Below are positions 3,976 through 19,207 of a stretch of DNA of 24,000 nt, piece by piece. The translations under genes were made by a program, and so were the position numbers. The notes beneath the pieces are model-generated. The model saw nothing but the letters and a program-made list of their open reading frames with translations. It did not search any database and was not told the origin of the DNA. This DNA comes from Prochlorococcus sp. AG-402-G22 (GTDB lineage Bacteria > Cyanobacteriota > Cyanobacteriia > PCC-6307 > Cyanobiaceae), in contig QCHV01000008.1 in assembly GCA_003217035.1 (NCBI GenBank), positions 43,513 to 67,512 of the forward strand, given 5' to 3'. Within the stretch, counting starts at the first letter, position 1. Each line of letters starts with the position of its first letter.

Positions 3976-4161
3976 CTAGTCAGGAAAACATTTGTTAGTG
4001 GGTTGTAATGACTTAAACCCAGAGGTTTCACTAAAGAAAAGTCCTGTACTTGCATATAGTTGGCAATTTGCATGAACTTGTTTCAATGGCTGACTAAAAA
4101 AGGATATAGGTGTGGCTAAAGACAATATCAGAATAAAAATTTTTGGTCGCATGTCTCGCAC
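3976..4161 (-). CDS. small secreted or membrane-anchored protein, unknown function
   Basis: The ORF-track start is a GTG at 4161, which is the last G of a G9 run. An in-frame ATG at 4152 gives MRPKIFILILSLATPISFFS..., a signal-peptide-like N-terminus. Confidence 0.4.
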   Translation of the reverse strand: MRDMRPKIFILILSLATPISFFSQPLKQVHANCQLYASTGLFFSETSGFKSLQPTNKCFPD

Positions 4162-4169
4162 CCCCCCCC
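4161..4169. repeat. C9/G9 homopolymer tract
   Basis: Nine consecutive C on the + strand, counted directly. It sits between the stop of 4190..4531 and the start of 3976..4161. Confidence 0.9.
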
Positions 4170-4189
4170 ATGTGTAAGTTGTTTTTTTA

Positions 4190-4531
4190 TTAATTGGCTG
4201 GTATGAATTTTGGCGGGATTAAGTTGCGAATTTGATGGGCAACTCTTTTGCAGGAAGTATCTTTTTTTAGATGAGGCTCATCACTCCTAATCTCAATTGA
4301 ACATTGCCTAAGAGCTTTATCTTTCCAGGAAATTAAAACCTTTACCTTTGAGTCTGGCTTACCAAGTCTTAGATCTTTTTCAGCAAAAACTTGAGAGTGA
4401 TTACTGAATTCATTAAGAACTTGTAGGCCTGCTTCTTCAAGTAAGCTTTTGAAGCTGCCTGTTAGGCAATCATTTTCGACTTCACTTAGGTAGTGGAAAT
4501 AAGCCATTAAAATTTTATTGGACTTTGCCAA
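4190..4531 (-). CDS. hypothetical protein
   Basis: 113-aa ORF from TTG 4531. An in-frame ATG at 4507 (MAYFHYLSEVEN...) is the more likely start. No family recognised. Confidence 0.5.
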   Translation of the reverse strand: MAKSNKILMAYFHYLSEVENDCLTGSFKSLLEEAGLQVLNEFSNHSQVFAEKDLRLGKPDSKVKVLISWKDKALRQCSIEIRSDEPHLKKDTSCKRVAHQIRNLIPPKFIPAN

Positions 4532-4761: not shown

Positions 4762-5427
4762 TTACCAAGGAAGGATTTCTCCATTTGAATGCCAGAAAGA
4801 ACCTGAATTTTCAATAGTAAGTGAATCTATTCTAGAAAGAAGACCAGTAACAGATTCTTTGGTTGATATCCCACTTTTTGTAAAAGATGTCATTTGAGTG
4901 CTAACTAAACCAGGATGCAAAATTGCTATAGAAATCCCATGACTTCTTAAATCAAGTGATAAAGACTTGCCAGCCATGCAAAGGGCGACTTTTGACATTC
5001 TGTATCCATATGATCCTCCTGAAGTGTTGTCATCAATCGATCCCATTCTGCTAGTCATAAGAACCACTTTTGAGCCAGCACGAAGATTATTTAGAAATGC
5101 ATGAACAAAACATAAAGGACTCAAGGCATTGACTTGAAATTGGCGCAAAACACTTTCCGGATCCAAGTTAGATAAGGAGTTGAATTCGGCAATTCCTGCA
5201 TTTTGAATTAAGACGTCTATTTTTAGCCCATTTAACTTTTCTCTAAGACTTATAACTGATTCACCAGATGTCACGTCCACGCCTGGCTCTACTCTGACAT
5301 CAAGCTTGTCTAATTCAGGCGAAGAAGATCTACATGTAGCTATAACATCATGTCCTTTAGCTTTCAATTGCCTACAATATTCAAGCCCTATTCCACGATT
5401 GGAACCAGTAATTAGATAAGTTGCCAA
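4762..5427 (-). CDS. short-chain dehydrogenase/reductase (SDR)
   Basis: 'ITGSNRGIG' (TGxxxGxG NAD(P) motif), 'NAG' and 'YRMSKVAL' (YxxxK catalytic motif). The TTG start comes directly after an in-frame stop, and the N-terminus is full length for an SDR. Confidence 0.85.
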   Translation of the reverse strand: MATYLITGSNRGIGLEYCRQLKAKGHDVIATCRSSSPELDKLDVRVEPGVDVTSGESVISLREKLNGLKIDVLIQNAGIAEFNSLSNLDPESVLRQFQVNALSPLCFVHAFLNNLRAGSKVVLMTSRMGSIDDNTSGGSYGYRMSKVALCMAGKSLSLDLRSHGISIAILHPGLVSTQMTSFTKSGISTKESVTGLLSRIDSLTIENSGSFWHSNGEILPW

Positions 5428-5499
5428 TTATTTATTAGTAACTTGCTAAATTATATGCCTACAACAACGAATCCAGAATTAGTTCGCTGAGCTTTGATA

Positions 5500-5673
5500 A
5501 TGAAATTTACTATTATTAGACATGACGGCATACATGACACAATAACCAACCAAGAGTTTGATCATTATGATGATGCGTACGATTTATTAGAAGAGATCTA
5601 TGCAGACTTATGCTGCTCAGATGCAGATTATGAGGACCGCCCATATTATGAAATAGTTGAGATACAAGATTAA
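5500..5673 (+). CDS. small acidic protein, unknown function (below ORF-track cutoff)
   Basis: Hand translation gives MKFTIIRHDGIHDTITNQEFDHYDDAYDLLEEIYADLCCSDADYEDRPYYEIVEIQD* (57 aa), with ATG start and TAA stop. Confidence 0.4.
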   Translation: MKFTIIRHDGIHDTITNQEFDHYDDAYDLLEEIYADLCCSDADYEDRPYYEIVEIQD

Positions 5674-6735: not shown

Positions 6736-7140
6736 ATGACAAGAATTAATTTAATAACTCCTCTAGAGTTGTCTGATCAACATTTAATTGCAGAGTATAG
6801 AGAGATTTTTATGGTTGGATCTGCTTTACAAAGGTCAATGAGATCTACTAATTGGAATAACATAAAGAATAGTATCCCTAAAGAATTCACCCTGAATAAG
6901 GGTCATGTAAAGTTCTTTTATAACAAAGGAAAGTATTTGCACAAAAGATACTTAGAAATAGTATCGGAAATGAAGAGAAGAGGAATGAGTCCTAATCCTC
7001 AAAGAAAATTTAAAAAAGAACAATGGCCTGAATATATGTATAATGATTGGCAGCCTAACAATAGAGATATTCAAATTATAAAAGAAAGAATACGTCAGAA
7101 AATATTAAAAAAACCTCATTGGTATAGGTGGTCAAATTAA
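6736..7140 (+). CDS. pyrimidine dimer DNA glycosylase (T4 endonuclease V family)
   Basis: The N-terminus MTRINLITPLELSDQHLIAEYREI aligns without gaps to T4 EndoV [24 protein letters not shown]. 'GHVKFFY' and 'HWYRW' correspond to GHVTFFY and TWYKY. Confidence 0.9.
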   Translation: MTRINLITPLELSDQHLIAEYREIFMVGSALQRSMRSTNWNNIKNSIPKEFTLNKGHVKFFYNKGKYLHKRYLEIVSEMKRRGMSPNPQRKFKKEQWPEYMYNDWQPNNRDIQIIKERIRQKILKKPHWYRWSN

Positions 7141-7244: not shown

Positions 7245-7787
7245 ATGTATATAAAGAGCCAAAGAGGTTGCAAACTTTTCATAGGAAACTACCCCTCCTT
7301 TAATTATGATGCTAGTGGCGGTGGAGGACACGCCTCTTGCTTTACGTCTCAAAATAGTAGCCTTGTTAGAGTTCATTTTGACCCTGATAAATTTTCTATC
7401 CCTCCTTTGTCATGGCGCACTGCACGATTCCTAGGACTCCCTTTGTTACCCTGCTTGATTATTCGGATGCGCATGGAGAAATTAGGTGGATATATAAATA
7501 AAGTAAATGGAGAAGTTTCACTTGATTTTGTCGCAAAGTTCTTTTTTAAAATATGGCCAATATATTCTTTCCCAGCTTTGATTGTTTCAACGAACTTGAT
7601 TACAGGGAAACTGGCTACTGATATAAATAACCTACAAGGCATGCCTATTAATAAGAAAGGTAGGTCGAAATTGGTAGGCTCTGCTCTTATCCAACCAACT
7701 TCAAATAAATTACTTAACGCGTTTCTTGGATTACCTAATAAAGCTATTGCTGTCCTGGAATGTGAATTCAAGGACATTGATTTTTGA
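7245..7787 (+). CDS. hypothetical protein
   Basis: 180-aa ORF. A 134-aa antisense ORF (7373..7777) covers the same DNA. The + frame reads as more protein-like (FIGNYPSFNYDASGGGG..., ...AVLECEFKDIDF). The strand choice is tentative. Confidence 0.5.
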   Translation: MYIKSQRGCKLFIGNYPSFNYDASGGGGHASCFTSQNSSLVRVHFDPDKFSIPPLSWRTARFLGLPLLPCLIIRMRMEKLGGYINKVNGEVSLDFVAKFFFKIWPIYSFPALIVSTNLITGKLATDINNLQGMPINKKGRSKLVGSALIQPTSNKLLNAFLGLPNKAIAVLECEFKDIDF

Positions 7788-8175: not shown

Positions 8176-9483
8176 TTACCCCCCTAGGCCGAAGAAAGAA
8201 TTGGCGATAAAGAGTAGGCTAAATACAATGAGAAAAACCAAGCCGATTTTTGATAGTAACGTCATAAAAGAGCCATAACGGTACTTACTTTGAACCAGTG
8301 GGCTATTTAGAGTATCCATTGCCATCCAAGCAAATATAGGAGCAGTTAAAAAACTTCCTGTCATTGCACTGAAAACAAAGTCTTTAACTCCAATACCTCC
8401 AGATTTTGCAATTAATAGCGCACTTAAGGCAGTGAAAATGTGAATTACAACCCAAATTTGCAAACGTTTGTTCTCTGAGCTTGATGATGATTGATCGTTG
8501 CCTCTTTTTAAGAGAAGGCCTTGAGAAGCTGAAATACTTCTTGGATATGCATCTAAGCAGGTGAGTGTTGTGCTAAACATTGCAGCAAAGGCCGAAGGAA
8601 CAATTATCCATTTAGACCAACCACCCATAGCTTCTGTATAAAGTCGAATAAGGTTTTGAGCGAATGAAACCCCACTACCAGAAAGCATTCCTTCGCCAGT
8701 ACCATACATAGTAAAAGCGCCCAAAATCACAAAGAAAATAGCAGTAATTACAGTGATTAAATACCCGAGATTAAAGTCAAACTCTGCTTCTTTTAAATTT
8801 GGTTTGTAATTAATATCTTTTGATCTAGAGAACATCCACAGAGATGGCCATACACATAATTCAACTGGTCCTGGCATCCACCCCATTAATGGAATCAAAA
8901 AAGATAAATTAGTCAATGTCCATGGGCTTGGGTCACTATTTATCCAACTGCTACCAACATCTCCTAACGGACCACGAGTTATTAAAGATATTACGGCTAT
9001 ACCAGTAAATAATGTCAGTAATGTTACTAGTACTTTTGAGATCCGATCCAGAGCTCGATATTGACCTAGCAAGAGAATTAACCCACTAACAACTAATATT
9101 CCAATAGATAAATCCATAGGAGGGAAGGAAGAAAAAATAGGAATATTTTTTAGTAAGAGACCAGTTACAAAGCTAACTGCAGCAATAGTGAATGTGCCTG
9201 TGATTAAACTTACGACCAAGTAAATAGGCAAGTAAAAACGGTTTCGAGCTTTAAACCCTTCTAATAGGGAGAGGCCTGTTGCAGAAGTAAAACGAGTGCC
9301 AATAAGCAAGAATGGATATTTGAATAAATTCGTAAGTAATATCAGAAATATCAAGGCAAATCCAAACTTTGCACCTGCAGTTGTTGACGACATTAAATGT
9401 GAACCGCCTATACAAGCTCCTGCCAATAAAATTCCAGGCCCTAAACTTTTTTGAATTCCTTTCCTAGAGAGTTCCATCGTCAA
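8176..9483 (-). CDS. Nramp-fold (MntH-like) membrane transporter, divergent metal site
   Basis: 435 aa with many TM segments. 'GPGILLAGACIGGSHLMSSTTAGAKFGF' aligns without gaps to E. coli MntH '[28 protein letters not shown]'. 'LMGWMPGPV' corresponds to 'GATIMPHV'. The start is TTG 9483 or ATG 9477. Confidence 0.75.
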   Translation of the reverse strand: MTMELSRKGIQKSLGPGILLAGACIGGSHLMSSTTAGAKFGFALIFLILLTNLFKYPFLLIGTRFTSATGLSLLEGFKARNRFYLPIYLVVSLITGTFTIAAVSFVTGLLLKNIPIFSSFPPMDLSIGILVVSGLILLLGQYRALDRISKVLVTLLTLFTGIAVISLITRGPLGDVGSSWINSDPSPWTLTNLSFLIPLMGWMPGPVELCVWPSLWMFSRSKDINYKPNLKEAEFDFNLGYLITVITAIFFVILGAFTMYGTGEGMLSGSGVSFAQNLIRLYTEAMGGWSKWIIVPSAFAAMFSTTLTCLDAYPRSISASQGLLLKRGNDQSSSSSENKRLQIWVVIHIFTALSALLIAKSGGIGVKDFVFSAMTGSFLTAPIFAWMAMDTLNSPLVQSKYRYGSFMTLLSKIGLVFLIVFSLLFIANSFFGLGG

Positions 9484-9654
9484 ATAACGGTTTAGATTAT
9501 CTTGATCAAGGGAACTCTATTTGTGTAAAAGAAATAACAAAAATAGATGATATTAAAAATTAAGAGAGGTTCTAATTCCAATAATTAATTGGGAATCTCG
9601 AAAAATTGATATGGATTTCATGTTTTATACACTTAGCAATTGATTGAATGTTTA

Positions 9655-9765: not shown

Positions 9766-9864
9766 CTAAAGTAGACTTATTAAGTTTCCTGTAATAACAA
9801 ATGAAAGCCACATAAAAGCTACAAGAGATATTACAAAGAATAGTATTTGATCATATGTACCCAT
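9766..9864 (-). CDS. 32-aa single-TM miniprotein downstream of the PsbF-like ORF (below ORF-track cutoff)
   Basis: Hand translation gives MGTYDQILFFVISLVAFMWLSFVITGNLISLL*. The ATG lies 15 nt after the stop of 9880..10179 on the same strand. Confidence 0.35.
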   Translation of the reverse strand: MGTYDQILFFVISLVAFMWLSFVITGNLISLL

Positions 9865-9879
9865 TTGAATTACTTACTT

Positions 9880-10179
9880 TTAAACCACACCTCTACGAAT
9901 AAATTGCATAGCAAAAATAGCTCCTAGAAAAAAAACAGTGGGTATTCCAAGAAGATTCACTGCCAGAGTTCTAACAGTAAAGACTGGATAACCTTCTGAA
10001 GGTCTTCCAGAAGTTGGGACAACAGCTGTATCTTCCCAATTTTGATAGTTTTCTAGGCTTGGAAACCCAGGCAGTGTCTGATTGTCCCACTTAAGAACTT
10101 CCCATTTGCTAAGCCAAAAAACTGTTGACAAGGCGGAAATGATTACAGGAGCAAGTACGATTAGGGTCTTCAATAGCAT
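9880..10179 (-). CDS. PsbF-like (cytochrome b559 beta-like) two-TM protein lacking the heme-ligand His
   Basis: C-terminal '[33 protein letters not shown]' aligns with canonical PsbF '[33 protein letters not shown]' (recalled), about 24/33 identical. There is an extra N-terminal hydrophobic helix ([22 protein letters not shown]). Confidence 0.7.
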
Positions 10180-10375: not shown

Positions 10376-10492
10376 TTATTCAAGTCTTTTACTTTGCTTT
10401 ACAAAGAAAGTTATTATTAGCCCTAATGCAACTAGCGGCATAGTGTTTTTTATTCCAGTAGTTAAAACTAAGAACATTGCTTGAACGGTCAA
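10376..10492 (-). CDS. 38-aa (or 33-aa) hydrophobic miniprotein (below ORF-track cutoff)
   Basis: GGAGG (10502..10498) is followed by 5 nt and TTG (10492). An in-frame ATG lies at 10477. Translation: (M)TVQAMFLVLTTGIKNTMPLVALGLIITFFVKQSKRLE*. Confidence 0.35.
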   Translation of the reverse strand: MTVQAMFLVLTTGIKNTMPLVALGLIITFFVKQSKRLE

Positions 10493-10534: not shown

Positions 10535-11125
10535 TCATCCAAAGGGCTTTACTCCCATTAATGGACTAACAAATAAGAATTCCATAACAGTTCCTGTTAT
10601 GGCCATTGGTAGAACCCATACGGTTAAAAAGCGAGCACCAAAAAACCTTATAGACTTTGAGTTTTCAAAAGCATCTTTAGTTGCTGTATAAATTGTTGCT
10701 GATTTTTTAACAGAATATTCAGTGTCTCGGTAAGGCCTCACAGGATTTAAAGAGCGAATAGAACCTGTCGCCCTTGTAATAGCAACAAAAGGCAAGGCCC
10801 ATATGGCCATAAAACGAGGACCAAGCCAATATCTAGGATGAGGAAAGGCATACTCCTCAGTTGTTTTTTGTTTAGGGAAAGCCTCCTCTATAGCTGTAAA
10901 AACTTTCTCAAATTGATTGACATCTGCTGCTTCTAGTGAAGAGTTTATGCTTATTGCTTCGCGCCTTTCCTCTGTAGCCGTATTTGATTGATTAATAGTT
11001 TCCTTTTCTGAAGCATCTTCCACTTCAGTAAAACTATCTGTATTAAAGGCTGCTTCTACAGGCGAGGAAATTTCCAGGTCATCGGTTTTTTCAATCTTGG
11101 GCGCCTCATCTTTTCTATTTTCCAT
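10535..11125 (-). CDS. membrane protein with acidic N-terminal half and an internally duplicated hydrophobic motif
   Basis: 196 aa. 'GPRFMAIWALPFVAIT' and 'GARFLTVWVLPMAIT' are two copies of the same motif. The N-terminal ~110 aa are rich in E/D/T/S. Confidence 0.55.
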   Translation of the reverse strand: MENRKDEAPKIEKTDDLEISSPVEAAFNTDSFTEVEDASEKETINQSNTATEERREAISINSSLEAADVNQFEKVFTAIEEAFPKQKTTEEYAFPHPRYWLGPRFMAIWALPFVAITRATGSIRSLNPVRPYRDTEYSVKKSATIYTATKDAFENSKSIRFFGARFLTVWVLPMAITGTVMEFLFVSPLMGVKPFG

Positions 11126-11538: not shown

Positions 11539-12018
11539 ATGAAAGTCAACGTTACCAAAACAGTAGTTGAGAACTCAGCTGGTCAAAATAAGACCCTAGG
11601 AGAATACTCAGGTAAAGTATTGCTAATAGTTAATGTTGCCAGTCAATGTGGCAACACTCCACAATATGAAGGATTGCAAGATCTAGAAGATAAATACAAA
11701 TCGAGAGGTTTTTGCGTGCTTGGCTTCCCTTGTAATGATTTTGGCTCACAAGAGCCAGGTTCATTGGCAGAAATCAAAGCATTTTGCTCGTCAAAATTTG
11801 GAGCAAAATTTGAGATTTTCAGCAAAGTGCATGCAAAAGGAAATACCACTGAACCTTACACAACTCTCAACAAAGCAGAACCCGCCGGTGATGTTAGTTG
11901 GAATTTTGAGAAGTTTTTAATAAATAAGAACGGAGATGTTGTTGCTCGATTTCAACCTGCTGTCCATCCTACTAATAGAGATTTAATAGATGCTATTGAG
12001 AAGGCTTTGGATTCTTAA
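11539..12018 (+). CDS. gpx: glutathione peroxidase (Cys-type)
   Basis: 'LIVNVASQCGNTPQY' (active-site Cys), 'LGFPCNDFGSQEPG' and 'WNFEKFLI' are the three GPx signature blocks. ORFs 11643..11849(-) and 11720..11920(+) are shadows. Confidence 0.9.
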   Translation: MKVNVTKTVVENSAGQNKTLGEYSGKVLLIVNVASQCGNTPQYEGLQDLEDKYKSRGFCVLGFPCNDFGSQEPGSLAEIKAFCSSKFGAKFEIFSKVHAKGNTTEPYTTLNKAEPAGDVSWNFEKFLINKNGDVVARFQPAVHPTNRDLIDAIEKALDS

Positions 12019-18214: not shown

Positions 18215-18892
18215 ATGGCCTTAAAGGAAAAATCTAAAAAAATTTATCAGGGTAAAGATTGCACTACAGAATTCAGAGATGCCTATGAAAATCGTTATAC
18301 ATGGGAACCTGACTTCTCTGGATATAAAGGTGAGTTTAGATTTTCTTCTGAAGATAAATCTTATGAGGGCTCATTTGTTTTAGGGGAAGATAAGAAACCT
18401 CAACTGTATAATTTGAATGATAGTCAAGTAAAGAGTTTAGTTGCTTCCCAATTATTCGAAGTAGCAATCCATAGAGTAAGAAGACCTTTTGAAACTGTGC
18501 ATAGTCAAAATACTTTTACTTATGGTGATATAGATGAAATAGGAGCTGAAGTGATAGTTGGAGGGAAAAATATAGGTGACAAATATCGTATTAAAGATAA
18601 TGTTGTTAGCATGGTTTATCGTCATATTCACGGAAGCTTGATCCGTATATATACTCAGGAAACCATTAATACTGGAAGGGGTTACCTAAGTAATATTTAT
18701 ACAAGTCAATATCTAGATCCTAAAACAAAGAAAGAGTTGGGTCCTAAGAAGAAATTCCATGATCAATTCGAGCCTCTCTATAAAGGAGGCCCATGGGTTC
18801 TAATTAGTAGAAGTATTGAAAAGGAAATATCGTCTGAACAGAATCTATTAATAGAGAAGTACTCCTTTTTTAATTTATATGAAATAAATTAA
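18215..18892 (+). CDS. conserved hypothetical protein (tentatively DUF3386-like)
   Basis: 225-aa soluble ORF. 'FRDAYENRYTWEPDFSGYKG' resembles a cyanobacterial/plastid-lineage DUF that I recall only loosely. Confidence 0.55.
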   Translation: MALKEKSKKIYQGKDCTTEFRDAYENRYTWEPDFSGYKGEFRFSSEDKSYEGSFVLGEDKKPQLYNLNDSQVKSLVASQLFEVAIHRVRRPFETVHSQNTFTYGDIDEIGAEVIVGGKNIGDKYRIKDNVVSMVYRHIHGSLIRIYTQETINTGRGYLSNIYTSQYLDPKTKKELGPKKKFHDQFEPLYKGGPWVLISRSIEKEISSEQNLLIEKYSFFNLYEIN

Positions 18893-18931: not shown

Positions 18932-19207
18932 ATGTCAAAAGAAGAGCTTACTTCAGATGTAAGTAAAAGGATTTGTTCTCATATGAATCTTGATCACAAG
19001 CAAACATTAAGAGCATTTGCAGAATTCTATGGAGGATTTAAAGATGCAAAGGATGTAAGTATGATTGAAATAAATACTAAGCTAATAAAATTAGAAGTTG
19101 ACGCACATCTTATAGAAATATCTTTTGACCATGAACTTACTGATAGTCAAGATGCCCATCAAACCATAGTATCAATGAGTAAGTCTTTACCAAAAAGACT
19201 GTCCTAA
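18932..19207 (+). CDS. DUF2470-domain protein (HugZ C-terminal / GluTR-binding-protein-like)
   Basis: The 'ICSHMNLDHKQTLRAFAEFYGG' H-M-N-x-D-H motif and the ~90-aa size fit DUF2470. Confidence 0.65.
   Translation: MSKEELTSDVSKRICSHMNLDHKQTLRAFAEFYGGFKDAKDVSMIEINTKLIKLEVDAHLIEISFDHELTDSQDAHQTIVSMSKSLPKRLS

What the first reader, a model, noticed from the sequence alone, without database searches (positions are those of the whole stretch)
9766..10179. PsbF-derived two-TM protein without the heme-ligating histidine, followed by a 32-aa TM mini-ORF
- **Similarity:** the C-terminal 35 residues of ORF 9880..10179 ([35 protein letters not shown]) are unmistakably cytochrome b559 beta (PsbF: [33 protein letters not shown]), about 24/33 identical by my hand alignment to the recalled sequence.
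- **Lost ligand:** the His that ligates the b559 heme (WLAVH) is Asn here (TLAVN), and the preceding Trp is Thr.
- **Architecture:** about 65 extra N-terminal residues include a second hydrophobic helix, so this is a 2-TM protein rather than a 40-45-aa single helix.
- **Context:** it is not in a psbEFLJ arrangement. It sits in a run of minus-strand membrane ORFs, and a 32-aa TM ORF starts 15 nt after its stop, which loosely recalls psbF-psbL/J spacing.
- **Interpretation:** a heme-less PsbF paralog could compete with PsbF during PSII assembly or repair, or act as a scaffold. I do not know of a characterised example.
Basis: partly seen in the sequence, partly recalled or inferred. Interest (0 to 1): 0.72.

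Follow-up and report, generated by a model that had tools for sequence, protein, structure and literature searches.

The report
Heme-less PsbF paralog gene cassette
This Prochlorococcus gene encodes a strongly conserved copy of the photosystem II subunit PsbF that has lost its heme-binding histidine, gained a second membrane helix and travels with a mostly unannotated 32-residue membrane peptide; databases name the family, but I found no study of its function.

Summary
ORF 9880..10179 (-) encodes a 99-aa protein whose C-terminal helix is PsbF with Asn where the heme-ligating His should be. A 32-aa one-helix ORF starts 15 nt after its stop.

It is not new as a sequence family. It passes NCBIfam NF002717, "cytochrome b559 subunit beta, long form", and the SS120 ortholog has been called "PsbF-like protein". 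I found no functional study.

What I add:
- **Ligand loss.** The ligand position is never His: 204/204 long forms in hand have Asn, against 133/133 His in canonical PsbF. Among 75 species-level loci the count is 74 Asn and 1 Leu.
- **Where the helices differ.** The consistent differences are His->Asn, Trp->Thr one turn away, and a conservative Ile->Val.
- **Selection.** Purifying selection is strong (pN/pS 0.10), with no sign of gene conversion.
- **Extra paralog.** MIT9312 has psbEFLJ and the long form about 805 kb apart.
- **Mini-ORF.** It is a real, conserved gene (56/75 loci; pN/pS 0.29) but is unrelated to PsbL or PsbJ.
- **Partner gene.** A second uncharacterised membrane protein (window 10535..11125) is linked in 59/75 loci and is co-regulated in MIT9312.

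Best reading, which is an inference: a heme-free structural mimic of PsbF acting with these small partners at or near photosystem II. The family's database name, "cytochrome", is probably wrong.

The parts
9880..10179 (-). PsbF-like protein ('cytochrome b559 subunit beta, long form'), 99 aa: N-terminal helix, about 40-aa acidic/aromatic linker, PsbF-type helix.
   Evidence: - ORF listed.
- NCBIfam NF002717 scores 163 bits (cut-off 153) over residues 1-99.
- 120 homologs.
- HL orthologs have pN/pS 0.10 in frame, against 1.4 and 3.4 out of frame.
10105..10176 (-). N-terminal transmembrane helix (residues 2-25), absent from canonical PsbF.
   Evidence: - AF2 helix at residues 2-25.
- Invariant V8, P11, W22 and W26 in alignment A1.
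- pN/pS 0.14.
- HL strains carry a standalone paralog of this module, which matches NF002717 positions 1-39 at E 1.4e-6.
9892..9993 (-). PsbF-homologous segment (residues 63-96), including the transmembrane helix.
   Evidence: - Pfam PF00283 covers residues 63-86 and TIGR01333 covers 62-96.
- It aligns to PsbF chains in the PDB.
- The majority residue is the same as in picocyanobacterial PsbF at 26 of 31 core positions. The consistent differences are at positions 3, 8 and 12.
- pN/pS 0.055.
9955..9957 (-). Asn75 codon (aat), at the position of the heme-ligating His of PsbF.
   Evidence: - Sequence read and alignment.
- Invariant in A1.
- 204/204 long forms have Asn, against 133/133 canonical PsbF with His.
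- 74 Asn and 1 Leu among 75 species-level loci.
9766..9864 (-). Conserved single-helix micro-protein gene (32 aa), starting 15 nt after the psbF-like stop.
   Evidence: - Homologs lie directly downstream in low-light Prochlorococcus at +5 to +22 nt, apart from one locus (L011) where the first ATG of the reading frame overlaps the stop.
- In marine Synechococcus they lie at +3 or +5 nt, or overlap the stop by 4 nt.
- In HL Prochlorococcus they follow one extra ORF.
- Present in 56/75 loci.
- pN/pS 0.29 in frame, against 0.77 and 1.71 out of frame. Variable columns by codon position are 15/7/26.
- Called as a gene in only 2 of the contexts I viewed.
- No Pfam, NCBIfam or PDB relative.
10535..11125 (-). 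Linked partner gene: 196-aa uncharacterised membrane protein with a disordered acidic N-terminus and two 'RF-x3-W-[VA]-[LF]-P' hydrophobic helices.
   Evidence: - A homolog lies within 4 kb of the psbF-like gene in 59/75 loci, in varying order and orientation.
- 172 database clusters; every source-provided name in the 120 listed reads 'hypothetical/uncharacterized protein' from Prochlorococcus, and none has a Pfam domain.
- In MIT9312 it is PMT9312_1175, down-regulated together with PsbF-like PMT9312_1176.
- The AF2 model is of low confidence (pLDDT 61), with helices at 103-125 and 164-190.

Best explanation
**What is shown**
- The gene encodes a functional, strongly constrained member of the 'PsbF-like / b559-beta long form' family. 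The family is found in marine picocyanobacteria.
- Compared with the PsbF helix, the consistent changes are at the His ligand (now Asn), at the Trp one helical turn before it (now Thr), and a conservative Ile->Val.
- The protein therefore cannot supply the axial His ligand that PsbF supplies.
- It is an additional paralog encoded away from psbEFLJ.
- It is the first gene of a small cassette. A conserved 31-38-aa single-helix peptide follows it. In Prochlorococcus an uncharacterised membrane protein with two hydrophobic helices is also linked, and HL strains add a standalone copy of the N-terminal helix.

**What is inferred**
- The protein is a heme-free structural mimic of PsbF.
- Its unchanged helix surfaces still dock onto PsbF's usual neighbours, the PsbE/D2 side of photosystem II or its early assembly intermediates.
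- The former heme pocket has become a small, polar Thr/Asn/Gly face. That face packs directly against another helix: its own N-terminal helix, the mini-peptide or the partner protein.
- The complex would act as an auxiliary or alternative PSII module for assembly, repair or photoprotection. It would not act as a redox cofactor carrier.
For: - **Identity.** NF002717 is passed at full length, and there are 120 homologs with the same architecture.
- **Loss of the ligand.** 204/204 long forms have Asn against 133/133 His in canonical PsbF. The protein has no His or Cys.
- **Differences confined to one face.** The consistent discriminators are positions 3 (V/I), 8 (T/W) and 12 (N/H) of the 31-residue core. 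Positions 8 and 12 are i and i+4, so they lie on the same helix face.
- **Selection, not conversion.** pS between canonical psbF and the long form is 0.6-1.0, while pN is 0.12-0.22. The PsbF core of HL long forms has pN/pS 0.055.
- **Extra paralog.** MIT9312 has psbE/F/L/J at about 286 kb and PsbF-like at 1.09 Mb. SS120 proteomics quantified canonical PsbF, PsbE and PsbL, and SS120 also encodes AAQ00538.1 'PsbF-like'.
- **Cassette.** The mini-ORF is present in 56/75 loci and shows a coding signature. It overlaps the stop codon in some Synechococcus. The partner gene is linked in 59/75 loci despite rearrangements.
- **Expression.** PsbF-like and the partner fall together, along with PSII genes, in MIT9312.
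- **Plausibility of a heme-free b559 scaffold.** T. elongatus His-ligand mutants assemble normal amounts of active PSII with apo-b559. Over-dosing psbEFLJ rescues Synechocystis ligand mutants (PMC4709441; PMC9297868).
- **From my own knowledge, not tested here.** Asn and other small polar residues within membrane helices promote helix-helix association.
Against: - No physical evidence places the protein in or near PSII. No solved structure contains it, and I found no proteomic detection.
- Its partners have no recognisable relation to any PSII subunit.
- Genomic context apart from the cassette differs between clades and never includes PSII genes.
- In Synechocystis, replacing the PsbF His with other residues abolishes PSII accumulation. 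A His-less beta subunit in the PsbF site could therefore be harmful rather than useful.
- One divergent copy has Leu rather than Asn (L080), so a specific Asn-mediated contact is not universal.
- 9 of 75 loci, including the HNLC-clade loci, have neither partner within 4 kb.
- Structure models are of modest to low confidence, and I could not model complexes.
Confidence: 0.5

Rival explanations
1. The cassette encodes an independent small membrane complex that has nothing to do with PSII. The PsbF helix was co-opted as a self-associating module, with Asn and Thr replacing the heme as the 'glue'. It would form a homodimer, or pair with the mini-peptide or the partner protein.
For: - The cassette partners are unrelated to PSII subunits.
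- The cassette is never next to PSII genes.
- Translational coupling with the mini-ORF suggests a fixed-stoichiometry partner of its own.
- From my own knowledge, not tested here: isolated PsbF has been reported to form beta-beta dimers in vitro.
Against: - After saturating synonymous divergence, the helix still keeps the PsbF majority residue at 26 of 31 positions. That is hard to explain if the PsbF environment had been abandoned.
- The transcript falls together with PSII genes in MIT9312.
Confidence: 0.22
2. Iron-sparing isoform: under iron scarcity the long form replaces PsbF in working PSII. This removes the b559 heme and lowers the cell's iron quota.
For: - The heme ligand is lost in every copy.
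- PSII with apo-b559 is active in T. elongatus.
- Metal-related genes lie nearby in some loci: Nramp in the window, Fur and an ABC-3 transporter in SS120, flavodoxin and a Pcb/IsiA-type gene in L005/L006.
- The family is confined to iron-poor open-ocean picocyanobacteria.
Against: - The metal-related neighbours differ from locus to locus and could be coincidence.
- The gene is expressed in standard cultures and follows PSII genes.
- A simple substitute would need neither an extra helix nor dedicated partner proteins.
- Iron-depleted (HNLC) clades show nothing special beyond lacking the partners nearby.
- I found no iron-response data.
Confidence: 0.1
3. The protein still helps bind a tetrapyrrole, but a different one or in a different way. 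One option is a five-coordinate heme held only by the PsbE His. Another is a chlorophyll ligated by the Asn.
For: - The Arg that contacts the heme propionate in PsbF (Arg19 beta in T. elongatus) is invariant in the long form (R70).
- The substituted residue is almost always Asn rather than a random residue.
- From my own knowledge: Asn is a known chlorophyll ligand in light-harvesting proteins.
Against: - The Trp next to the heme is also lost in most copies.
- One copy has Leu at the ligand position.
- The Arg also sits at the membrane interface, where positive residues are kept for topology.
- There is no direct test.
Confidence: 0.07
4. A decaying psbF duplicate, or a sequencing or assembly artefact, with a chance downstream ORF.
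For: Scores against the generic b559 models are marginal (31.3 bits against a cut-off of 30; 62.2 against 61.15).
Against: - pN/pS is 0.10 over the whole gene, with out-of-frame controls above 1.
- The gene is intact in 75 species-level genomes.
- The mini-ORF shows a coding signature.
- Transcripts were detected.
Confidence: 0.01

Closest known systems
Cytochrome b559 beta subunit (PsbF) of photosystem II
   Same: - The C-terminal helix is homologous, with 25/33 identities to a solved PsbF.
- The majority residue matches picocyanobacterial PsbF at 26/31 core positions.
- The interface Arg and the C-terminal AMQFIRR motif are kept.
   Different: - No axial His (Asn instead), and Trp->Thr one turn away.
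- 99 aa with an extra N-terminal helix and linker, against 44-49 aa with one helix.
- Not in psbEFLJ.
- It has its own downstream micro-protein instead of PsbL/PsbJ.
NCBIfam NF002717 / NF002720 'cytochrome b559 subunit beta, long form'; UniRef 'PsbF-like protein' (AAQ00538.1, P. marinus SS120; PMT9312_1176 in MIT9312)
   Same: - This is the family the window protein belongs to. The full-length match is above the cut-off.
- It is 67 % identical to the SS120 protein.
   Different: - Nothing in architecture.
- The database name implies a cytochrome, which the sequence contradicts.
- I found no paper on its function. 'PsbF-like' occurs in only two held papers, and only one of them concerns this family.
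Engineered apo-cytochrome b559 (His-ligand mutants of PsbE/PsbF)
   Same: - A b559 subunit without its axial His.
- In T. elongatus such mutants still assemble active PSII (PMC4709441).
- In Synechocystis they do so if psbEFLJ is amplified (PMC9297868).
   Different: - Those are laboratory point mutants of the single-helix subunit in its operon.
- This is a natural, ancient, separately encoded paralog with extra parts. It coexists with an intact PsbF.
PsbF2 of Synechococcus sp. PCC 7335
   Same: A second psbF-type gene encoded outside psbEFLJ (PMC8689208).
   Different: PsbF2 is short, 75 % identical to PsbF1, keeps the heme His and sits in the normal b559 site of far-red PSII.

Membership tests
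Cytochrome b559 beta subunit (PsbF; Pfam PF00283, TIGR01333) | Sequence match above the curated thresholds | tested here: met
   PF00283 scores 31.3 bits (cut-off 30) and TIGR01333 scores 62.2 (cut-off 61.15). Both are marginal and cover only residues 62-96.
Cytochrome b559 beta subunit (PsbF; Pfam PF00283, TIGR01333) | Axial His ligand to the b559 heme (His22/24 beta; PMC4709441) | tested here: not met
   Asn75 occupies the aligned position. 204/204 long forms have Asn, against 133/133 His in canonical PsbF. The protein has no His at all.
Cytochrome b559 beta subunit (PsbF; Pfam PF00283, TIGR01333) | Single-helix protein of about 40-50 aa | tested here: not met
   The protein is 99 aa, with helices at residues 2-25 and 66-94. 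Canonical picocyanobacterial PsbF is 44-49 aa.
Cytochrome b559 beta subunit (PsbF; Pfam PF00283, TIGR01333) | Encoded in the psbE-psbF-psbL-psbJ operon | tested here: not met
   The window has no psbE, psbL or psbJ. Canonical operons were seen elsewhere. In MIT9312 the two loci are about 805 kb apart.
Cytochrome b559 beta subunit (PsbF; Pfam PF00283, TIGR01333) | Binds heme with PsbE and is a stoichiometric PSII subunit | not testable with these tools
   This needs biochemistry or a structure of picocyanobacterial PSII. No solved structure contains the long form.
PsbF-like / 'b559 beta, long form' (NCBIfam NF002717) | Full-length match above the curated cut-off | tested here: met
   163 bits (cut-off 153), residues 1-99 on model positions 1-95 of 97.
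PsbF-like / 'b559 beta, long form' (NCBIfam NF002717) | N-terminal helix with its conserved residues, plus a PsbF helix with a non-His residue (Asn) at the ligand position | tested here: met
   V8, P11, W22, W26, N44, R70 and N75 are invariant in alignment A1, and the window protein carries them all.
PsbF-like / 'b559 beta, long form' (NCBIfam NF002717) | Followed by the conserved single-helix micro-protein gene (a feature defined in this study) | tested here: met
   The window mini-ORF lies at +15 nt. It is 56 % identical to the SS120 one in alignment A3. Homologs are present in 56/75 loci.
PsbL / PsbJ (for the mini-ORF) | Sequence or profile similarity to PF02419 / PF01788 or to picocyanobacterial PsbL/PsbJ | tested here: not met
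   hmmscan finds no PsbL or PsbJ match at E up to 10. hhalign probability is 0.1 % against PsbL and against PsbJ.
PsbF2-type duplicate (Synechococcus PCC 7335) | Short form that keeps the heme His | tested here: not met
   The paper states that both PsbF1 and PsbF2 contain the conserved His. The window protein does not.

The most novel reading that the evidence does not exclude
The cassette (PsbF-like protein, micro-peptide, 'RF-W-LP' membrane protein, and in HL strains a free N-terminal-helix paralog) encodes a previously unrecognised heme-free, b559-like module specific to marine picocyanobacteria. It would bind PsbE/D2 in place of, or alongside, PsbF. That would create an alternative PSII assembly or repair intermediate, or a heme-less PSII isoform, that alters photoprotection or iron demand in the ocean's most abundant phototrophs.
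Probability: 0.3. Interest if true: 0.8.

Novelty: new member of a known kind. Interest (0 to 1): 0.5.

Why it matters
- **An open question.** The role of cytochrome b559 in photosystem II is still debated. Here nature has kept, under very strong selection, a version of its beta subunit with the heme ligand removed. It occurs across Prochlorococcus and marine Synechococcus, organisms that carry out a large share of ocean photosynthesis.
- **What knowing the function would tell us.** It would show which roles of b559 are structural and which are redox. It might also reveal a PSII assembly, repair or iron-economy device specific to open-ocean cyanobacteria.
- **Practical point 1.** Databases call the family a "cytochrome", and truncated gene calls are labelled as ordinary PsbF. 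This can mislead gene counts and metabolic or iron-quota inferences.
- **Practical point 2.** A conserved micro-protein gene next to it is missing from most of the annotations I viewed.

Tried and rejected
- **Partner protein as a degenerate b559 helix.** Rejected. hhalign probability is 0.07 %, and a profile search found no PDB relative.
- **Mini-ORF or N-terminal helix related to PsbE, F, L or J.** Rejected. hhalign probabilities are 3.3 % or less. There are no Pfam or NCBIfam hits and no PDB hit.
- **Gene conversion with psbF explains the similarity.** Rejected. Synonymous sites are saturated, with pS 0.6-1.0.
- **Cyanophage-borne gene.** Rejected. tblastn found no match in 50,697 phage records. 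The single IMG/VR hit covers only the canonical helix.
- **The 38-aa ORF (10376..10492) and the 29-aa ORF (9492..9581) belong to the cassette.** Rejected. They are not conserved in other loci.
- **P0460 as a canonical PsbF of Synechococcus MIT S1220.** It is a truncated call of the long form.
- **Same-assembly proof through contig look-ups.** The rows shown never overlapped. The MIT9312 supplementary table settled the point instead.
- **PsbF2 of PCC 7335 as the same thing.** Rejected. It keeps the His and is the short form.
- **Fold search with the long-form model.** No hits. The partner-protein model was too poor to search (pLDDT 61, pTM 0.23).
- **Promoter and terminator scan.** Promoter-like sites are no commoner than chance. 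The terminator-like sites fall inside coding sequence or outside the cassette.
- **Rfam and tRNA scans.** Nothing found.
- **Metatranscriptome supplement.** Not held.
- **Locus tags PMT9312_1175/1176.** They appear in no other held paper.
Full report

Yes. On the minus strand there is a 99-aa ATG-initiated ORF at 9880..10179. Fifteen nucleotides after its stop, a 32-aa ATG-initiated ORF runs from 9864 to 9766.

Residues 58-96 of the 99-aa protein align to PsbF chains from many solved photosystem II structures at E about 1e-11. From the Tyr of YPVFT I count 25/33 identities to chain 9t5u_F. Where PsbF has ...RWLAVH..., this protein has ...RTLAVN.... Asn75 is the codon aat at 9955..9957. The protein contains no His and no Cys.

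Pfam PF00283 (31.3 bits, cut-off 30) and TIGR01333 (62.2, cut-off 61.15) are only just passed, and they cover only the C-terminal third. AlphaFold2, run on a 28-sequence alignment, gives a modest model (mean pLDDT 66). It shows two long helices, residues 2-25 and 66-94, joined by a low-confidence linker.

**2. It belongs to a family that databases already name.**

The protein passes NCBIfam NF002717, "cytochrome b559 subunit beta, long form", at full length (163 bits against a cut-off of 153).

A search of 5.8 billion proteins returned 120 clusters with the same architecture. A 100 % identical NCBI entry lies on a 69.6-kb contig. The named relatives are all Prochlorococcus. They include AAQ00538.1 of P. 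marinus SS120, which UniRef calls "PsbF-like protein".

A scan of one genome per species found 75 long-form loci. Seventy are Prochlorococcus, four are marine Synechococcus, and one divergent copy lies on a contig binned as "Blastopirellula", which is probably mis-binned. All weaker hits were ordinary psbF of other cyanobacteria. Phage and viral collections have none.

The window is AT-rich (about 35 % G+C). Its closest relatives are low-light-type strains such as MIT 0603 and SS120. It most likely comes from an uncultured low-light Prochlorococcus.

In the held literature "PsbF-like" appears in only two papers. One is about an orchid. The other merely lists the MIT9312 gene among down-regulated PSII genes. 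I found no functional study, and no solved structure contains the protein.

**3. The loss of the heme ligand is a fixed, selected trait.**

All 28 diverse members in alignment A1 have Asn at the ligand position. All 133 canonical picocyanobacterial PsbF sequences have His. Among the 75 species-level loci the position is Asn in 74, Leu in one (L080) and never His.

Over the 31-residue helix core, the two families have the same majority residue at 26 positions.
- The consistent differences are position 12 (Asn against His), position 8 (Thr against Trp, although 18 long forms keep Trp) and a conservative Val/Ile at position 3.
- Positions 25 and 26 differ in majority residue, but their residue sets overlap.
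- Positions 8 and 12 are one helical turn apart, so they lie on the same face, the face that carries the heme ligand.

This similarity is not due to recent gene conversion. Synonymous differences between canonical psbF and the long-form helix are essentially saturated (pS 0.6-1.0), while pN is only 0.12-0.22.

Among 32 HL orthologs, pN/pS is 0.10 for the whole gene. By segment it is 0.14 for the N-terminal helix, 0.14 for the linker and 0.055 for the PsbF core. Out-of-frame controls give 1.4 and 3.4. Two HL strains differ at 64 % of synonymous sites in the core and at no non-synonymous site.

**4. It is an extra paralog, not the cell's psbF.**

The supplementary gene table of PMC6517427 lists both loci for Prochlorococcus MIT9312.
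- ycf48-psbE-psbF (147 nt)-psbL-psbJ are PMT9312_0298-0302, at about 286 kb.
- "PsbF-like protein" PMT9312_1176 (297 nt) is at 1,091,505.

SS120 encodes AAQ00538.1, and a proteomics study of that strain quantified canonical PSBF_PROMA, PSBE_PROMA and PSBL_PROMA. Canonical rubA-ycf48-psbE-psbF-psbL-psbJ loci were recovered for marine Synechococcus and Prochlorococcus.

I could not check the window's own genome, because only this contig is available. The window itself contains no psbE, psbL or psbJ.

**5. The mini-ORF is a real, conserved and mostly unannotated gene.**

A homologous 31-38-aa single-helix peptide follows the long form in most lineages.
- In low-light Prochlorococcus it lies at +5 to +22 nt, apart from one locus (L011) where the first ATG of the reading frame overlaps the stop. 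The SS120 version is MKAIDQVLFFIVSITAFSWLSIVLTGNLLTYLMS.
- In marine Synechococcus it lies at +3 or +5 nt, or overlaps the stop codon by 4 nt (ATGA). That arrangement suggests translational coupling.
- In HL Prochlorococcus it follows one intervening ORF (MIPIEQYLFFAVSLYAFFYLSITIVSTLISFS).

It is present in 56 of 75 loci. Across 40 distinct HL alleles, pN/pS is 0.29 in frame, against 0.77 and 1.71 in the other frames. Variable columns by codon position are 15/7/26.

It is absent from the gene calls shown for SS120, the MIT 0603-type genome and an HL genome. It was called as a 36-aa gene in two Synechococcus metagenome contigs.

It has no Pfam, NCBIfam or PDB relative. It shows no profile similarity to PsbE, F, L or J (0.6 % or less). 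The resemblance to psbF-psbL/J is therefore positional only.

**6.

(a) *The 196-aa ORF immediately upstream on the same strand (10535..11125).* It has homologs within 4 kb of the long form in 59 of 75 loci. Their positions and orientations vary.
- Upstream in the window, L007 and L011.
- Convergent in SS120.
- Downstream in HL and other clades.

Linkage that survives such rearrangement argues for a functional tie.

The protein has a variable acidic N-terminus and a conserved core of about 110 aa. The core contains two hydrophobic "RF-x3-W-[VA]-[LF]-P" helices. The family comprises 172 database clusters. Every source-provided name in the 120 listed reads "hypothetical/uncharacterized protein" from Prochlorococcus, and none has a Pfam domain.

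In MIT9312 it is PMT9312_1175. It fell together with PsbF-like in the same treatment (log2 fold changes -2.05 and -1.25).

In the MIT 0603-type genome the partner lies elsewhere. There it is again divergent from a glutathione peroxidase, as in the window. The linkage is therefore strong but not absolute.

(b) *A 61-codon ORF in HL strains, between the long form and the mini-ORF.* It is a standalone paralog of the long form's N-terminal helix. It matches NF002717 positions 1-39 at E 1.4e-6. Its pN/pS is 0.28, against about 1.0 and 1.4 out of frame. It is present in 47/75 loci.

Nine loci, including the HNLC-clade loci, have neither the mini-ORF nor the partner nearby.

**7. How it most likely works.**

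*Shown.* The protein cannot provide the axial His that defines b559 beta. Its PsbF-type helix is otherwise preserved under very strong selection. It is expressed. It comes with dedicated small membrane partners.

*Background from the literature.*
- Each b559 subunit supplies one His to the heme.
- Replacing either His in Synechocystis abolishes PSII accumulation.
- T. elongatus ligand mutants nevertheless assemble normal levels of active PSII with apo-b559.
- Amplifying psbEFLJ rescues the Synechocystis mutants (PMC4709441; PMC9297868).
- A heme-free alpha/beta-type pair can therefore serve as a structural unit.

*Inferred.* Because the consistent changes lie on the heme-ligand face, the remaining surfaces probably still contact what PsbF contacts: PsbE and the D2 side of PSII, or its earliest assembly module. 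The former heme face, now Thr/Asn/Gly, probably packs directly against another helix. I give this "heme-free PsbF mimic acting at PSII" model about 0.5.

*Rivals.*
- A PSII-independent small complex that reuses the helix as an association module (0.22).
- An iron-sparing PSII isoform (0.10). The metal-related neighbours are suggestive: Nramp here, Fur and ABC-3 in SS120, and flavodoxin with a Pcb-type gene in L005/L006. They are inconsistent from locus to locus, and I found no iron-response data.
- Retained binding of a different tetrapyrrole (0.07).
- Decay or artefact (0.01), which the selection analysis refutes.

**8. Comparison with known things, and novelty.**

The protein resembles PsbF in sequence. 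It fails three of PsbF's defining features that I could test: the His ligand, the single-helix size and the operon context. It should therefore not be filed as cytochrome b559 beta, despite the database name.

It is a clear member of the catalogued but uncharacterised "long form / PsbF-like" family. I therefore rate it as a new member of a known kind. PsbF2 of Synechococcus PCC 7335 is a different case, because it is short and keeps its His.

As far as I could find, three things have not been described:
- the family-wide loss of the ligand;
- the confinement of the consistent changes to the ligand face of the helix;
- the conserved cassette with an overlooked micro-protein and a second orphan membrane protein.

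Annotation is also misleading in places. Truncated calls of the long form are labelled as ordinary "cytochrome b559 subunit beta" (P0460 and P0060).

**9. Verdict.**

The finding is real and correctly described. It concerns a named but unstudied family rather than an unknown one. Interest is moderate (0.5): a PSII specialist would find a universally conserved heme-less PsbF paralog with its own partners worth an experiment. Function remains inference, and the sequence family itself is not new.

Noticed in passing
L022, L028-L063, L066-L076 (e.g. L052 4310..4492); not present in the window: HL Prochlorococcus carry an extra 61-codon ORF between the psbF-like gene and the mini-ORF. It is a standalone paralog of the long form's N-terminal helix (NF002717 positions 1-39, E 1.4e-6; pN/pS 0.28). 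This suggests that the N-terminal module can work as a separate polypeptide.
   Followed up: partly
P0460 (Synechococcus sp. MIT S1220), P0060 (Prochlorococcus sp. MIT 0601), P0164, P0197: Truncated or full-length long forms are named 'cytochrome b559 subunit beta', 'PsbF' or 'photosystem II cytochrome b559 subunit beta' by their sources, although they have Asn at the ligand position. This is an annotation trap when counting psbF genes.
   Followed up: yes
L080 about 3990..4290 (contig NZVR01000027.1, binned as Blastopirellula sp.): A divergent long form (46 % identity) has Leu instead of Asn at the ligand position (...RTLAILALGIP...). The contig is probably a mis-binned picocyanobacterial fragment. 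No mini-ORF or partner gene lies nearby.
   Followed up: partly
P0397, P0428, P0498 (metagenome-only, 45 aa): A few short-form PsbF sequences from metagenomes have Leu or Pro where the heme His should be (for example WLSILALG). They may be sequencing errors or rare natural ligand-less short forms. I did not examine them further.
   Followed up: no
window 11539..12018 (+) and 10535..11125 (-); L088 3994..4473 and 5001..5669: The partner membrane-protein gene is divergently paired with a glutathione peroxidase gene, both in the window and in the MIT 0603-type genome. In the latter the psbF-like gene lies elsewhere.
   Followed up: partly
window 18215..18892 (+) and 18932..19207 (+): Adjacent DUF3386 and DUF2470 genes. 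DUF2470 was recently described as a dimeric heme-binding domain in cyanobacteria (abstract of PMC11014987, seen). DUF3386 also lies near the psbF-like gene in L005/L006.
   Followed up: no
window 8176..9483 (-): A 435-aa Nramp-type divalent-metal transporter with a TTG start lies about 280 nt downstream of the mini-ORF on the same strand (Pfam 34 bits against 29.8; NCBIfam Nramp_1 64 against 50). It is not next to the cassette in any other locus I examined.
   Followed up: partly
window 6736..7140 (+); L001 8775..9218: A pyrimidine-dimer DNA glycosylase gene lies 2.5-2.7 kb beyond the cassette, in the same relative orientation, in both the window and SS120. This is a remnant of local synteny.
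   Followed up: no
L064, L065, L077, L078, L113-L122: In marine Synechococcus the long form and mini-ORF pair has its own conserved context. An alpha/beta-hydrolase gene lies upstream on the opposite strand. A 198-aa pentapeptide-repeat protein with a hydrophobic N-terminal segment lies about 560 nt downstream on the same strand.
   Followed up: no
window 7245..7787 (+) and 7373..7777 (-): Two long ORFs (180 aa and 134 aa) overlap on opposite strands. I scanned only the 180-aa one, and it has no Pfam or NCBIfam match. Which of them is a real gene, if either, was not resolved.
   Followed up: no
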